64,000 nt of DNA from contig NC_087253.1 in NCBI RefSeq assembly GCF_037042905.1, positions 992,001-1,056,000 on the forward strand, written 5' to 3'. Below, piece after piece: positions 18,001 through 24,000 of the stretch. Position 1 is the first letter of the stretch. The number at the start of each line of letters is the position of its first letter. This stretch comes from Lytechinus pictus. Lineage: Eukaryota. The position numbers were made by a program.

Positions 18001-21000
18001 TTTGATACATACAAACAATAGAAAAGAACAAACTAAATGCAAAGTTTTGAACCAAATAAAACAAAATAGATGACAAAAAACTGAAGTTTGATTCCAGAAG
18101 TGTAAGAAATAAAAACAAATCAAATGAAACAGATGAAGAAAAAAATCAATACTAACTTAGGAACAAAATAATTGATTCCATTTCCCAAAAAAATCTAAGA
18201 ATGACAGATATGTGACTGAAGTATGTAGCCAAAAATCTGTATATTTTGACTGCAGTAATGTACATGTGCATTGTACATTGTACATATTCAACCCCTGCCC
18301 ATATCTTCAGTGATTTGGTTAAAAATAAATATACAGAGGATAAGATGGGTAATTCATATATGATGCAGAAAGTAATGACAGTTTTTATCCCATAATTCAA
18401 AATGCAATAATACCTGTTTCATAAAGGACTTACAACTGTTGTAACTTTGCCATTATGGCAACTACCATGGTAACAGGGCTCAGCAGCCAATCAAAATCAA
18501 GGTTTCCATGGAAATTGCAGTAATGGCAAAGTTATCATTGTTGTAACTTTTTATTAAATGGGCCCCGTATCTTTAAACTAAATCAAAAAAAATGTTTGTG
18601 TATTCATTGTATGTAATGACATGAAAAGGGCCTTCACCATATAGGTAATACAGAAGATAAAAGATAAAAACTGTCAGCTTTCTCCATCATATGTGAACAG
18701 ACCTCAAGAAAATGTTTGATTCATTCAATAGAGTTAAGAGGGTGAGTGATAAACACTGCATTCCAAGGTGCGTACATTCCGAAGTAAGAACGTGACACAA
18801 GAGGGCGCACTCACATGGCTGTAGCGCAGACGAGCCTTAAGCTCTGCTGTCTCCGTCTGTGACCTAACTAGCTTGACCTACCAGGAAGGGGCAGGAATTG
18901 TGGGTAATAATATTGCTTCATGTTATCAAAACTACATGTTATCATTAGGGCAGGAGTCTTGAGTCTCAAATTATCAGATACATGTATATTTTGTGATATT
19001 TTATATTCACTGCACTTTGACGAGACGGATTAAAAAGGGCAAAATTTCAATTGCTCTGAAATTACAAAGAGTATAATTTTGAACAAAAACATTTATTTAG
19101 AAGTTCTTTAATACTGGTTAACTATCTTGGATCTATTCTGTAAAAGGAGATTTACCATCTTCATCCACAATCAATTGGGCAAAGCAAGTTTTTCTGAGTA
19201 TTTCATTTCATGTCTATTTCGAACAATATGGATTTTCATTTTCTTTTTTTTTTTCATCAAAAATAATGTGCCTTTTATTTTCCTCATAAGCACTATTTAT
19301 CTGATCAATGATATTTGAACACTATTCTTGTGTTCCTGTATGATATTGATCAATTTATTCAATGTAGTCTTGATTGCTGGAATATCAAACAATAAATAAT
19401 AATAATACTAATACAGTAATAATAATGATAATAATAACAATAGTAATAATAATACAGTAATAATAATAAAAAATAATAACACTAATAATAATAATAGTAA
19501 TAATAATAATACAGTAATAATTAAAGAGTTTTTTTGATAAAATACCTGTGTTTCCATATATTTCTCCTGCCATTTATGACATTCTGATTGAAGGTCTCCC
19601 ACAGTTTTCTGGAAGAAAAATGAACAAAAATCATATCTAATAATAATACAACTAATATCATAATTGTTACCATCATCATCATCTTTATTATTTGTTTGGC
19701 TCAACCCATGCATGGGAGGCCAAAGATAAATTGTATCACTGCAGGTCTGCAGGTCTCTCCTCCCAATATGTAACTGATTGTATGACTGTTGCTCTCAGGT
19801 TTCCCCCTATGTGAATAAGGTTCTTAAAATGCAAAGCTGATCATATTTGATCTAAACTTTGAGCTCTAAAGATTAACAAGTAATACCGTAAGTAATGGTC
19901 TATTAACCGCACCTTTTTCTCGGCGGGATAGAAGCAAAAGTCGGGGGTGCGGTTTATCCACGTGACAGGTCTGAGCCAGCCCGTCGTAACCCCTCCCGAA
20001 CATGTAAGACGTCTGCCAGTTCACAACACATCGAGTGGCCGGGCGTAGCCGCCCAGGGCAATGTTGTTTAGAGGGGTATGAGCCGCGGGTAATGGGAAGC
20101 GATTATTACGATCTTAATCAAATATTGTCCATAACAAACCCATTCACCTTCATGACACTAATTTCGACTTTATTCTCGATTCAAAGCAGCAAAGTTCCCT
20201 GGCTAAGTTCAAAGAGACGCCAAGCATACTCGGTAATATTTTGTCACAGCTGAGAGAGAGTTGAGTGAGCTGAGAGCTTGCGTTGTATTGTGGTTATAGT
20301 GCGACTTAAGCTGGCCCTATTCATTTTAAAGGAGAATTAAACTCTTGGAGCAAGTTAGCTTTTGTGAAAGCAGAAAAATCAAAGAATAAGATCAACAAAA
20401 GTTTGAGTAAAATAGGACTAGCAATAGAAGAGTTATGAGCATTTGAATGTCGAGGTCACTAATGCTATGGAGATCCTCCCATTGGCAATGCGACCAAGAT
20501 CTATGATGTCACAGATGAACAACTCTCCCCTTTTGGACACTGAAAATATACCCTAAAATATCTCTTTTTGCTCATTCTAATCATACGACAAACGATTCAT
20601 CAATGATATAATGTTGTGAAACCTCTGTAATTGTCCTCTCATAAAGAGAACACCTTACCTTGTGATAGACTCTATAAAAGAGAGAATATAAGTGAAATAA
20701 GTACTAAAGTAATGAGGGAGTTGTACGTGTGTGACATCACAGATCTTGGTCGCATTACCAATGGGAGGAACTACATGGCATTAGTGATCTCAATATTCAA
20801 ATGCTCATAACTTTCTTATTATTCATTCAATCTTCCTCAAACTTTCAACAATATGTGTCTTTGATTTTTCTCTTTGATATGGATTCAGCTGGTTTCAAGG
20901 GTTTCATTCTCCTTTAACCCCTCCCCTCCAAAGTCCCTTACCATTTCGCGCCAGCTTATTTTTTCTTTCCCATTTGCTTTTCATGAGATACCATGTACAC

Positions 21001-24000
21001 CACGCATGAGAGAGATGGCACGAAGCCATAAAAACAACTGGAAAAAATGCCAATTTCTTTGTTTCTTGAACCTTCCTGTAATCCCGTATCCAAAATTCAT
21101 GCTAAGACATCGAATGCTAGACAAATTCTGAAGGTGATTGTAAGGTTGTGATGCAAGAAATGTGAATGTTTCTTCCTCCTACGCCGGGAAAGACACAGTT
21201 CATAATTTGATAAGATGTACTGCCTGGTACCGTATCGTAGTTTGCAATGTACAAGAACGGCAATGCTGTGTGTGTACACTGTGACTGTGAGGTGAGTGAG
21301 TGTGTAAGTGACCAATATTTTCTTGCTAACATTTGTAGATGAATTGATCAAGAACAGCAGATTTTTGCATACCAGTAATCTCTTTGGATACTTTGAAATC
21401 TTTAACTTAATTTTTGTTTCTTCGTACAGTGTACCTCAAATATACATGTACCGGTAAATGTGAGAAGGATTTTTTATTTTTTATTTATTTTTTTAGTCCA
21501 AAGTTGGGGGTGCGGTTAATCCACGCGTGCGGTTTATAGTCCGTTACTTACGGGTATTTAAAATTAATTGTAAAATTGTGGACATGGTTTTGAAAAGATT
21601 AACAGTTATCATCAATTGTAAAATTCATATTTAAAATCAATTGTACATACATGTATAATGTTAGAAGAGGTCTATATATGATAACGTTAGTTTCATTCTA
21701 GAATGCTTGAGAACCTCTAGGCAGCGCAGCTAAACACGGGGTAGACAGGAATAACCGTCGTTTCTGGGGATTTTTTAAACAATTTCTGACATTTTACTAT
21801 AATCCCCATTCACCGACGATAGTGTGTTTGTGCGAACCTGCATGTGTAATCACGTCGCCCATTTCGGGCCTATGGTGTTTTGTCTAGATCTTAATTTTAA
21901 AGGATCGAGGATGACTATGTTTTGATCTTCATTTGAAAGGAATTTGCGGTAAATGCGGTCTAAGGTACGATATTTCTGAATTTTATACATTTTTTTTGGT
22001 AAATTCCGAAGTAATTTCTTTTTTATAATGTGACATTTTATGTACAAAAAAAAAATCCGAAAATCAGGTTTCCGCCGAATGTTAGATCTAACGTTACTGC
22101 TAATACGTTGTCTTTACGTACGGGCCAACAACTCTTCAGTCTATAAATTGGTGAGTGGAGCCAACACAGTTCAGCGGAACAACCAAAATNNNNNNNNNNN
22201 NNNNNNNNNNNNNNNNNNNNNNNNNNNNNNNNNNNNNNNNNNNNNNNNNNNNNNNNNNNNNNNNNNNNNNNNNNNNNNNNNNNNNNNNNNNNNNNNNNNN
22301 NNNNNNNNNNNNNNNNNNNNNNNNNNNNNNNNNNNNNNNNNNNNNNNNNNNNGGGCCCCTGATCATTATAAATCAATTTTACAATCAATACCTAGGTGTT
22401 GGTCTGCACACACCCCCTATAATACTAACCTGACTTTGCTGATATTTTGACATTAACTTGTTCATCTCTTGTTGCTGCTCTTCAATCTTAGACTGTGAAA
22501 GATAATAAGAAATAAACAAGTTCAGATGTTATAACAGCTCTGAACCATAGCTCTCTATTGTGCACATTACCAGTAGCAGACCTGCCAACCTCTGGGAATG
22601 AAAAACTGTATTCTGTGATACAAAAAAATGTATTTTCCCCCAAAAAAGTGTATTTCATAATAAAATGCTTGGCGCACTCGCCCATCACGGCGCTCAAGCT
22701 GCATGCAAGCTAAAATGCGCACTGCTCTTGCAGATGAAAAAAAAACCCATTGAAACTTGTGTATATCTCACCCTGGTTTTTACAAAATGATTGGAAAAAA
22801 AAAACAAGTTACCTGAAATTACATTGATCTAATAACCATATTTGTGTACGTTTTATGAAATAGAGACATATAGAGATGATTTTTCTTAATAAATTACGAT
22901 TTAAAAAAAAAAAAAAAACGTATTTTTTAAAGAAAAAACGTACTGCCGTATTTTGGTTGCAAAAACGTACTAAATACGGCTAAAACGTACTGGTTGGCAG
23001 GTCTGCAGTAGGGCACACCCCACATTTTGGATTAGACTACATTTTTGCCCCAAACATTTTATATTTTAAGAAAATGGCCCCAACTGATTCTTGGTCCAAA
23101 TCTAATATCTGAAGTAACAAAAAAAAAAATTCTTGAAAGAAGTAGAGAAACCTGACCCTATAATGAAATCATTGGCATGAGTAAAAGACTTACTATGGAT
23201 ATTTTACTCTTTAGATCAGCTAGAGACATTGTTTTTTCTTGAGTTGAAACCATATGACATGATGAGCAATGGAATCATGAGTGCAATAGTTTGTCTACAT
23301 CCCAGTCTAAAGAGTAGTTTGACCCTGCCACATTTTAGTGTGTGTTAGTGAGAGCATTATACTGAACTACACTATATTCCACTGAAGCATTTAGATTAAA
23401 TACAGTTTATTGCTAGCCTTGTTGGGACACGGTCAAAACATGATGCACATATACTAGTTTTCCTTTTGGTCCTTGTCAGGTATTGAATTCAATAAATTTA
23501 GATCTACAATAATATCCCTGAAATGCAATTAATATCTCAGTCAAACCTGTTTTAGTGGTCATCTCTCTATAGCAGACACCTGTCTATAGTGAACACTAAC
23601 TAAACCCCGCTGAGGTATATTATGTGTACCGGTATAAGAACCTGTATATACAGGCCATGTATTGTGTCAGTACAGACAGGTTTCACTGTATTTGAAGGAA
23701 TAATGTCATATGGCCTTTCTTAAATTTCTCTTCTCTTGCCCTTTTCTTTTAATAATAATGCAGAGAATTTGTATAGCGAGATGCTCATGGCACTTGAGGT
23801 ATTTTTTACATGCTTTTTTATGGAAGGGTAAAAAAACAACCAAAACAATACGTGGTATCAAAGTAGCACATACACTATTCAGAATAGGCATACAGCATAC
23901 AGTACTGACACAGTTTATTGCATAGCGCCATCTCTTGGTCAGGTTTCAACAGTGTATACACCAATACCAATTTATTCAAATTGTATGCATGATTCCCAAC

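What the first reader, a model, noticed from the sequence alone, without database searches (positions are those of the whole stretch)
18815..22492. Three consecutive 63-nt phase-0 exons: heptad-quantised coiled-coil modules
Exons 22430-22492, 19546-19608 and 18815-18877 each encode exactly 21 aa (3 heptads) with symmetric phase 0. Any subset could be skipped while keeping both reading frame and heptad register. Inference: old exon duplications, or selection for splice-tunable length of the liprin-beta coiled coil.
[Added by the scan's program, not by the reader: the finding's places include an assembly gap (unread letters, written N; its length is only estimated) at 22190 to 22352. Whether the letters on both sides are continuous or in frame is not known: test that first.]
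Basis: partly seen in the sequence, partly recalled or inferred. Interest (0 to 1): 0.65.

Follow-up and report, generated by a model that had tools for sequence, protein, structure and literature searches.

The report
Three-heptad exons in urchin liprin-beta
Three neighbouring 63-base exons of a sea urchin liprin-beta gene each encode exactly three heptads of one continuous coiled coil, but only the third is an optional exon, and it was found only in one group of sea urchins; this is a tidy but fairly ordinary case of alternative splicing.

Summary
Three minus-strand segments (22492..22430, 19608..19546, 18877..18815) are each 63 nt, bounded by AG and GT, and in phase 0. They match exons of annotated Lytechinus liprin-beta proteins exactly. 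The window fits L. pictus best, so it is not human.

The N gap (22190-22352) lies inside the intron after the first exon. It is cut off from that exon by an in-frame stop. Orthologues from independent assemblies join exon A directly to exon B, so no constitutive exon is hidden there.

All three exons share one heptad register (a at residues 3, 10 and 17), within a run of about 24 heptads. AlphaFold2 models one uninterrupted helix across them.

- Exons A and B are present in 23 of 23 echinoid models and conserved across echinoderms. They are weakly similar to each other, so an old duplication is plausible.
- Exon C is missing from 8 of those 23 models, including annotated skip isoforms in three species.
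- No exon C equivalent was found in Diadema, starfish, sea cucumber, amphioxus, lamprey, fish or platypus.

Exon C is therefore a lineage-restricted cassette exon that preserves both reading frame and heptad register. It shows no detectable similarity to A or B.

The isoforms are already annotated. Interest is modest.

The parts
2689..56426 (-). The part of the liprin-beta gene (PPFIBP orthologue) that lies in the window, from the start codon at 56426 to exon E16. The exons for the SAM domains lie beyond the low end of the window.
   Evidence: Mapping of P0014, P0017, P0010, P0020 and P0001 by tblastn and exact blocks. Per-exon identity to L. pictus P0011 is 100% for E3-E13, E15 and E16; P0011 lacks the 27-nt exon E14.
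26251..26325 (-). Exon E3: 75 nt, 25 aa, phase 0/0. The coiled coil starts here. The second N gap (26050-26227) begins 23 nt past its donor.
25629..25742 (-). Exon E4: 114 nt, 38 aa, phase 0/0.
24949..25080 (-). Exon E5: 132 nt, 44 aa, phase 0/0. It lies directly upstream of exon A and was the query for the first protein search.
22430..22492 (-). Exon A: 63 nt, 21 aa (SKIEEQQQEMNKLMSKYQQSQ), phase 0/0. Constitutive in all models seen. Core positions: a = I, M, Y and d = Q, L, S.
22190..22352 (.). Assembly gap (163 N) inside the A-to-B intron. It was not filled.
   Evidence: stop before the gap. (A and B contiguous in orthologues).
19546..19608 (-). Exon B: 63 nt, 21 aa (KTVGDLQSECHKWQEKYMETQ), phase 0/0. 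Constitutive in all models seen. Core positions: a = V, C, Y and d = L, W, T. An AAT microsatellite (19395-19521) lies in the intron just downstream.
18815..18877 (-). Exon C: 63 nt, 21 aa (VKLVRSQTETAELKARLRYSH), phase 0/0. Cassette exon, included in 15 and skipped or absent in 8 of 23 echinoid models. Core positions: a = L, T, L and d = S, L, S, which is a weaker core.
17890..17940 (-). Candidate further cassette exon: 51 nt, 17 aa (KKPRKQKRLFFHMPSRP), bounded by ttttAG and GTaagt. Basic and proline-containing, and not a multiple of a heptad.
   Evidence: It matches 11 of 17 residues of the extra 17 aa that P0003 (an unnamed MetaClust record close to S. purpuratus) carries after exon C. It is in none of the other 22 models.
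15343..15391 (-). Exon E9: 49 nt, phase 0/1. It is the acceptor used when C is skipped. The continuous register ends within this exon, near residue 280 of P0002.
14698..14759 (-). Exon E10: 62 nt, phase 1/0.

Best explanation
The three segments are coding exons 6, 7 and 8 of a Lytechinus (best fit L. pictus) liprin-beta gene.

Together they encode 63 residues in the middle of the long N-terminal alpha-helical coiled coil. In vertebrate liprin-beta, the N-terminal coiled-coil part mediates homo- and heterodimerisation and binds KANK1. Each exon holds exactly three heptads in the same register, so the hydrophobic seam runs unbroken across all the junctions.

Exons A and B are constitutive and are conserved at 21 + 21 residues throughout echinoderms. 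They probably descend from one ancient tandem exon duplication.

Exon C is different. It is a cassette exon seen only in Lytechinus and Strongylocentrotus, and it is either included or skipped. Its length is a multiple of both 3 and 7 codon positions, and both flanking introns are in phase 0. Inclusion therefore lengthens the rod by 21 residues, about 3 nm. It does not shift the reading frame or rotate the downstream seam. It also adds a stretch with a more polar core.

Shown here: the exons, their phases, the register, the two isoform classes and the taxonomic distribution in protein records.

Inferred: that the two rod lengths differ in function (spacing or partner binding), and that C arose after the split from the Diadema lineage.
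For: Exon bounds and phases.

Gene identity: (8 hits, all echinoid liprin-beta, 95-100% identity to the 44-aa exon E5). (every exon from E3 to E16 except the 27-nt E14 is identical to L. pictus P0011). (SAM_1 at 4.3e-36 and SAM_2 at 5.3e-31 in the full-length L. variegatus protein P0002).

Register: (common best offset for the three exons; 2 of 20000 shuffles reach the score). (register 'a = 1 mod 7' holds from about residue 113 to 280 of P0002; in the skip isoform P0017 it runs unchanged into E9).

Helix: (AF2 on P0020 with a 13-sequence alignment gives one helix over residues 23-247, with pLDDT 96-98 over A, B and C).

Splicing pattern. A and B are in 23 of 23 models. A clean B-to-E9 junction is seen in 8 of 23: L. 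variegatus X4, L. pictus X2 and P0015, S. purpuratus X3, the unnamed transcript-sized contig record P0025, D. setosum, and two D. antillarum models.

Distribution. There is no C equivalent in 7 Asterias isoforms, Holothuria, Branchiostoma, Lampetra, Gasterosteus or Ornithorhynchus.

Conservation: C is 21/21 identical between Lytechinus and S. purpuratus.

A-B relatedness.

Role of the liprin-beta coiled-coil part in vertebrates: passages read in PMC4995097 and PMC8602034.
Against: - The isoform evidence is mostly automated RefSeq models. Only one transcript-sized contig (P0025) supports the skip form independently. I have no read counts, so the inclusion level is unknown, and so is any regulation by tissue or stage.
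- Diadema has one model per locus. Exon C could exist in that genome and simply be left out of the chosen model.
- The alignment to chordates is only 27-31% identical, and they carry length differences of their own a few residues downstream. 'No equivalent' is therefore secure for echinoderms only.
- Taken alone, exon C does not prefer the common register (offsets 0 and 2 tie). Only 3 of its 6 core positions are hydrophobic.
- The register scoring is a simple home-made a/d count, not a trained coiled-coil predictor.
- The AF2 model is a monomer, so it cannot show pairing.
- No solved structure matches this region (best E = 0.21).
Confidence: 0.8

Rival explanations
1. One reading: all three 63-nt exons are interchangeable optional modules, and splicing tunes the rod length in steps of three heptads (0 to 3 modules).
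For: All three are phase 0/0, 63 nt and in one register. Any subset could therefore be removed without a frameshift or a register shift.
Against: A and B are present in 23 of 23 echinoid models and in all 8 starfish and sea cucumber proteins checked. No model differs by 42 or 63 residues in this region.
Confidence: 0.08
2. All three exons are copies of one ancestral 63-nt exon, and exon C has simply diverged the most.
For: The exons have equal length, phase and register. A and B are reciprocal best in-phase matches in 5 of 5 echinoderm species. The best in-phase match of C is A, at 5/21 identities and score 19, against 14 for the next window.
Against: The A-C and B-C scores are ordinary under heptad-position-preserving shuffles: 2238 and 13895 of 20000 reach them. 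Exons plus 150-nt flanks show no DNA similarity. C is missing from every non-camarodont protein examined. A duplication would therefore have to be recent, yet no trace of one is left.
Confidence: 0.15
3. Coincidence or annotation artefact: the equal lengths have no meaning, and the skip isoforms are model-building noise.
For: Only three exons are involved, and they were picked out after the fact by a scan. Other exons of the same helix are not multiples of a heptad (25, 38 and 44 aa). Most isoforms are computed models.
Against: The skip form is annotated independently in three species and also appears in an unnamed transcript-sized contig (P0025). Exon C has canonical splice sites and is 21/21 conserved across two genera. 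The common register is reached by 2 of 20000 shuffles.
Confidence: 0.07

Closest known systems
Liprin-beta (PPFIBP1/PPFIBP2) N-terminal coiled coil
   Same: Same gene family. Named orthologues match at 95-100% within echinoids. They can be aligned through the coiled coil to starfish, sea cucumber, amphioxus, lamprey, stickleback and platypus. The full-length Lytechinus protein carries the SAM domains.
   Different: The 21 residues of exon C have no counterpart outside Lytechinus and Strongylocentrotus in the proteins examined. Chordates have 3 extra residues in the region matching exon A, and other length differences downstream of B.
Lineage-specific cassette exons (new exons that begin as alternatively spliced exons)
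   Same: Exon C has a restricted distribution, and inclusion and skip forms coexist. The abstracts of PMC2077895 and PMC2711938 (search listing) describe exonisation of intron sequence and exon duplication as the sources of cassette exons, and describe recently gained alternative exons.
   Different: Exon C is included in most annotated isoforms (6 of 7 in L. variegatus and 4 of 5 in S. purpuratus). It is as conserved as its constitutive neighbours. Its source, whether intron or copy, could not be identified.
Genes whose exon length equals a structural repeat (54-bp collagen exons, nebulin and titin PEVK module exons); recalled from general knowledge, from no call
   Same: The exon length matches a whole number of structural periods. 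Exons can then be added or dropped without disturbing the fold.
   Different: Here only 3 of 9 coiled-coil exons fit the period. There is no long array, and only one exon is optional.
Alternative splicing in liprin-alpha genes (Zurner and Schoch 2009; seen only as an entry in the reference lists of PMC8602034 and PMC13311821; paper not read)
   Same: A sister family of scaffold proteins with an N-terminal coiled coil, reported to be regulated by alternative splicing.
   Different: I did not read the paper. I cannot say whether the liprin-alpha events keep the heptad register or where they lie.

Membership tests
Liprin-beta (PPFIBP) gene | Sequence identity to named liprin-beta proteins | tested here: met
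   8 hits, all echinoid liprin-beta-like, 95-100% identical to exon E5; exons E3 to E16 are identical to L. pictus P0011, except the 27-nt E14, which P0011 lacks.
Liprin-beta (PPFIBP) gene | Three C-terminal SAM domains | tested here: inconclusive
   In the full-length database protein P0002, SAM_1 and SAM_2 each match in 3 stretches. The exons that encode them lie outside the window, so the window itself does not show them.
Liprin-beta (PPFIBP) gene | Pfam liprin-beta coiled-coil family (PF26022, listed as precomputed for the hits) | tested here: inconclusive
   My own Pfam scan of P0002 did not return PF26022. It returned only sub-threshold coiled-coil families (Rod_CreS at 20.8 bits against a cut-off of 100). 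Exons A, B and C scanned alone matched 0 families.
Canonical heptad coiled coil | Hydrophobic a/d periodicity in one continuous register across the three exons | tested here: met
   common best offset, reached by 2 of 20000 shuffles; one register from about residue 113 to 280 of P0002. Caveat: the score is home-made, and exon C alone is ambiguous.
Canonical heptad coiled coil | Uninterrupted alpha-helix | tested here: met
   a single helix over residues 23-247 of P0020, with pLDDT 96-98 over A-C (monomer model).
Canonical heptad coiled coil | Parallel dimer actually formed | not testable with these tools
   No multimer prediction is available. No solved relative exists (best E = 0.21).
Alternatively spliced cassette exon (exon C) | Both the inclusion and the skip form exist for the same gene | tested here: met
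   L. variegatus X4 against X1-X3 and X5-X7; L. pictus X2 against X1; S. purpuratus X3 against X1, X2, X4 and X5; plus the unnamed contig record P0025 (skip form). Most are computed models.
Alternatively spliced cassette exon (exon C) | Junction reads and regulated inclusion | not testable with these tools
   No RNA-seq data is available here.
Alternatively spliced cassette exons (exons A and B) | A skip form exists | tested here: not met
   Present in 23 of 23 echinoid models and in 8 of 8 starfish and sea cucumber proteins.
Tandem exon duplicates | Sequence similarity between the exons above background | tested here: inconclusive
   A-B: 6-8 of 21 identities; reciprocal best of 15 in-phase windows in 5 of 5 species; but 1459 of 20000 heptad-preserving shuffles reach the score. 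A-C and B-C are at background. No DNA similarity.

The most novel reading that the evidence does not exclude
Exon C is a newly evolved exon specific to camarodont urchins. It could become fixed because its length is an exact multiple of a heptad at a phase-0 intron. Splicing then gives the liprin-beta rod two lengths about 3 nm apart, which resets the spacing of partners bound on either side of the insert in cortical or synaptic scaffolds. The nearby 51-nt basic, proline-containing candidate exon (17940..17890) would be a second switch of the opposite kind, one that interrupts the rod.
Probability: 0.2. Interest if true: 0.5.

Novelty: new member of a known kind. Interest (0 to 1): 0.3.

Why it matters
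If the two forms are both expressed and regulated, this is a clean natural example of how a coiled-coil scaffold can gain an optional segment without harm. The new exon sits at a phase-0 intron and is a whole number of heptads, so frame and hydrophobic seam both survive.

It would give a simple comparison of two liprin-beta rods that differ by about 3 nm within one species. It would also give a datable exon gain within sea urchins.

Beyond that it is ordinary. The gene, the exons and the isoforms are already in public annotation. My searches found no paper that discusses heptad-matched exons in liprin-beta. They covered only open-access text.

Tried and rejected
- Pfam on each exon alone: 0 families for A, B and C, which are too short to score.
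- Word-based search with the coiled-coil region of P0002: it found echinoids only, plus one unnamed distant hit (P0028, not used). The exhaustive HMMER search was needed to reach other phyla.
- PDB sequence search with the 259-aa coiled-coil protein P0020: only chance-level hits (E = 0.21-0.61; DotF, myosin, NUS1).
- DNA self-comparison of each exon with its flanks (150 nt on each side, but only 77 nt on the gap side of exon A) against the window: only low-complexity AAT matches. There is no sign of exon copies or of a repeat family around exon C.
- ORFs of 90 aa or more at 15000-26500: 8, all low-complexity, spanning N runs or part of the exon B frame. None was scanned further. Tandem repeats: an AAG array at 15120-15227 and an AAT array at 19395-19521. 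Rfam and tRNA scan: nothing.
- Literature searches for register-keeping cassette exons: nothing relevant. The one 'heptad register' hit (PMC13522067, passages read) concerns Homer1 and makes no such claim.
- The idea that E5 ('...SKLKARLDS...') is the source of exon C ('...AELKARLRYS...'): 6/21 identities and score 14, ranked second among in-phase windows. That is not above background, so I rejected it as evidence.
- The joined step was left out. Full-length comparisons used database protein records by id.

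
Full report
**What is there**

On the minus strand the three segments named in the finding are exactly as described.
- 22492..22430 is exon A.
- 19608..19546 is exon B.
- 18877..18815 is exon C.
- Each is 63 nt, preceded by AG and followed by GT, and open in the frame that starts at its first base.
- Their translations are SKIEEQQQEMNKLMSKYQQSQ, KTVGDLQSECHKWQEKYMETQ and VKLVRSQTETAELKARLRYSH.

The window has 35% G+C and holds two N runs, 22190-22352 and 26050-26227.

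**Whose gene it is**

I searched the neighbouring 44-aa exon (25080..24949) on its own against the large protein set.
- The search returned 8 proteins with E <= 0.01 among 16 candidates.
- All are echinoid liprin-beta-like proteins: Lytechinus variegatus and L. pictus at 100%, Strongylocentrotus purpuratus at 98%, and two Diadema species at 95%.
- Per-exon comparison shows that every exon from E3 to E16 is identical to the L. pictus record P0011, except the 27-nt exon E14, which that record lacks. L. variegatus X1 differs by one or two residues in four exons.
- The window is therefore sea urchin, most probably L. pictus, and not human.
- The full-length L. variegatus protein P0002 carries SAM_1 and SAM_2 domains. 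Their exons lie beyond the low end of the window.

**The joined step**

Exons were searched or translated one at a time. Full-length work used database protein records by id.

**Exon map**

Exact-match mapping of five database isoforms, refined by reading the junctions, gives this map on the minus strand.

| Exon | Coordinates | Length (nt) |
|---|---|---|
| E1 | 56426..56354 | 73 |
| E2 | 52060..51831 | 230 |
| E3 | 26325..26251 | 75 |
| E4 | 25742..25629 | 114 |
| E5 | 25080..24949 | 132 |
| A | 22492..22430 | 63 |
| B | 19608..19546 | 63 |
| C | 18877..18815 | 63 |
| E9 | 15391..15343 | 49 |
| E10 | 14759..14698 | 62 |
| E11 | 13991..13913 | 79 |
| E12 | 13187..13090 | 98 |
| E13 | 12438..12286 | 153 |
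| E14 | 8796..8770 | 27 |
| E15 | 7965..7303 | 663 |
| E16 | 2887..2689 | 199 |

- E3 through C are six consecutive phase-0/0 exons.
- Only A, B and C are 63 nt.
- The other three phase-0 exons encode 25, 38 and 44 aa, which are not multiples of seven.

**The gap**

The N run 22190-22352 lies inside the A-to-B intron.
- Read-through from exon A stops 14 codons past the donor, before the gap (ORF 22388-22528).
- Exon B lies about 2.6 kb beyond the far side of the gap. The gap therefore cannot affect either frame.
- In 23 of 23 echinoid proteins covering the region, the A peptide is followed directly by the B peptide. The same holds in 7 Asterias isoforms and one Holothuria protein. These include records from independent assemblies.
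- A constitutive hidden exon is therefore excluded. A rare optional one is not.
- The gap was not filled or looked up.

**Heptad register**

I scored each exon alone for hydrophobic occupancy of a and d positions.
- The best register common to the three puts a at residues 3, 10 and 17 and d at residues 6, 13 and 20.
- Only 2 of 20000 within-exon shuffles reach the common score.

| Exon | a positions | d positions |
|---|---|---|
| A | I, M, Y | Q, L, S |
| B | V, C, Y | L, W, T |
| C | L, T, L | S, L, S |

- Exon C alone is ambiguous: two offsets tie. Its core is half polar.
- On the database protein P0002, one register ('a = residue 1 mod 7') holds from about residue 113 to 280, roughly 24 heptads. 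There is a wobble over exon C, and the register shifts after about residue 281.
- In the skip isoform P0017 the same register runs straight from B into E9. The later shifts occur 21 residues earlier.
- AlphaFold2 on the 259-aa L. pictus protein P0020, with a 13-sequence alignment, gives a single helix over residues 23-247. The pLDDT is 96-98 across A, B and C. This is a monomer model, so it shows helix continuity but not pairing.
- No solved structure matches the region.

**Which exons are optional**

Cluster look-ups gave 27 echinoid records, of which 23 cover the region.
- A and B are present in 23 of 23.
- C is present, 21/21 identical, in 15 of 23.
- In the other 8, B is followed directly by the E9 peptide. 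These 8 are:
  - L. variegatus isoform X4
  - L. pictus isoform X2 and P0015
  - S. purpuratus isoform X3
  - the unnamed record P0025, from a 3763-nt contig that is transcript-sized and 1137 residues identical to S. purpuratus X3
  - D. setosum
  - two D. antillarum records
- In three species, therefore, both forms are annotated for one gene.
- The four records dropped from the count (P0009, P0012, P0013, P0024) do not reach this part of the protein.

**How old the exons are**

The exhaustive HMMER search with P0020 found 205 proteins at E <= 0.001.
- I looked up names for 10 of the best 150.
- I aligned 17 named non-human records over the coiled coil.
- A and B align without gaps in all echinoderms (urchins, Asterias, Holothuria). 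Chordates carry 3 extra residues in the region matching exon A.
- The 21 columns of exon C are filled only in Lytechinus and Strongylocentrotus.
- They are empty in Diadema, Asterias (7 of 7 isoforms), Holothuria, Branchiostoma, Lampetra, Gasterosteus and Ornithorhynchus.
- Caveats: Diadema has one model per locus, so the exon could exist there unannotated. The chordate alignment is only 27-31% identical and has its own length differences a few residues downstream.

**Duplication**

- A and B share 6-8 of 21 identities in register, following the pattern E..Q.E......KY..[ST]Q.
- They are reciprocal best matches among 15 in-phase 21-residue windows in each of 5 echinoderm species.
- Full shuffles rarely reach the score (0-53 of 20000). 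A shuffle that preserves heptad position reaches it in 1459 of 20000 trials. The five species are also not independent.
- An ancient A/B duplication is therefore plausible but not shown.
- Exon C is at background against A, B and every other in-phase window.
- None of the three exons, taken with its flanks, resembles anything else in the window at DNA level.
- The origin of exon C, whether a diverged copy or exonised intron sequence, is open.

**Mechanism proposed**

- Shown: C is an optional exon at two phase-0 introns. It is a whole number of heptads and sits inside a continuous helix in a continuous register.
- Inferred: inclusion lengthens the dimeric rod by 21 residues. At about 0.148 nm rise per residue (a recalled constant), that is about 3.1 nm. 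The downstream seam is not rotated. Inclusion also inserts a stretch with a more polar core and new surface residues.
- In vertebrates, the liprin-beta1-binding site of KANK1 is the first part of KANK1's coiled coil, and liprin homo- and heterodimerisation clusters the cortical complex (passages of PMC4995097).
- The N-terminus of liprin-beta1 co-precipitates with Kank1 and Kank2 (passage of PMC8602034).
- A length or surface change here could therefore alter spacing or partner choice. That step is speculation.

**Comparison with what is known**

- The gene, the exons and the isoforms are already in public annotation.
- Cassette exons that arise in one lineage and begin as alternative exons are a well-described class (abstracts of PMC2077895 and PMC2711938 in the listing).
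- Exon lengths that match a structural period are known from collagen, nebulin and titin (recalled).
- I found no open-access paper on heptad-matched exons in liprin-beta. Subscription literature and paper supplements were not searched.

**Left unchecked**

- Exon-intron structures in other animals, because no eukaryotic genome collection was available.
- RNA-seq junction counts.
- Dimer structure.

**Verdict**

Exons A, B and C form a real three-exon stretch that keeps the heptad register. Only the youngest member, exon C, is optional. Interest is modest.

Noticed in passing
window 17890-17940 (-): A 51-nt open segment bounded by AG and GTAAGT in the C-to-E9 intron. It encodes a basic, proline-containing 17-mer and matches 11 of 17 residues of an extra insert carried only by the unnamed record P0003 after exon C. 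It is a possible second cassette exon that would interrupt the coiled coil. It is absent from the other 22 models.
   Followed up: partly
window 38642-38686 (-): An alternative first coding exon (start codon at 38686) used by L. variegatus X5 and by L. pictus X1 and X2. It replaces the conserved N-terminal 101 residues encoded by E1 and E2, which implies a second promoter inside the 25-kb intron.
   Followed up: partly
window 7303-7965 (-) and 8770-8796 (-): A 663-nt phase-0 exon with an internal repeat of the motif PRTIHVPIHI is skipped in L. variegatus X6 and X7 and in S. purpuratus X4 and X5. A 27-nt micro-exon just upstream appears only in some L. variegatus isoforms.
   Followed up: partly
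window 26050-26227: A second assembly gap (178 N) begins 23 nt past the donor of exon E3. Orthologues join E3 to E4 directly, so no constitutive exon is hidden there. The gap was not filled.
   Followed up: partly
window 19395-19521 and 15120-15227: An AAT microsatellite (about 41 copies) lies just downstream of exon B. An AAG-rich array in the intron downstream of exon E9 creates long low-complexity ORFs on both strands.
   Followed up: no
window 14716-14718 (-), exon E10: In exon E10 the window encodes V at a position where most Lytechinus records examined have I. Only the L. pictus record P0011 matches the window in every exon it contains, which suggests that the window comes from that assembly or haplotype.
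   Followed up: partly
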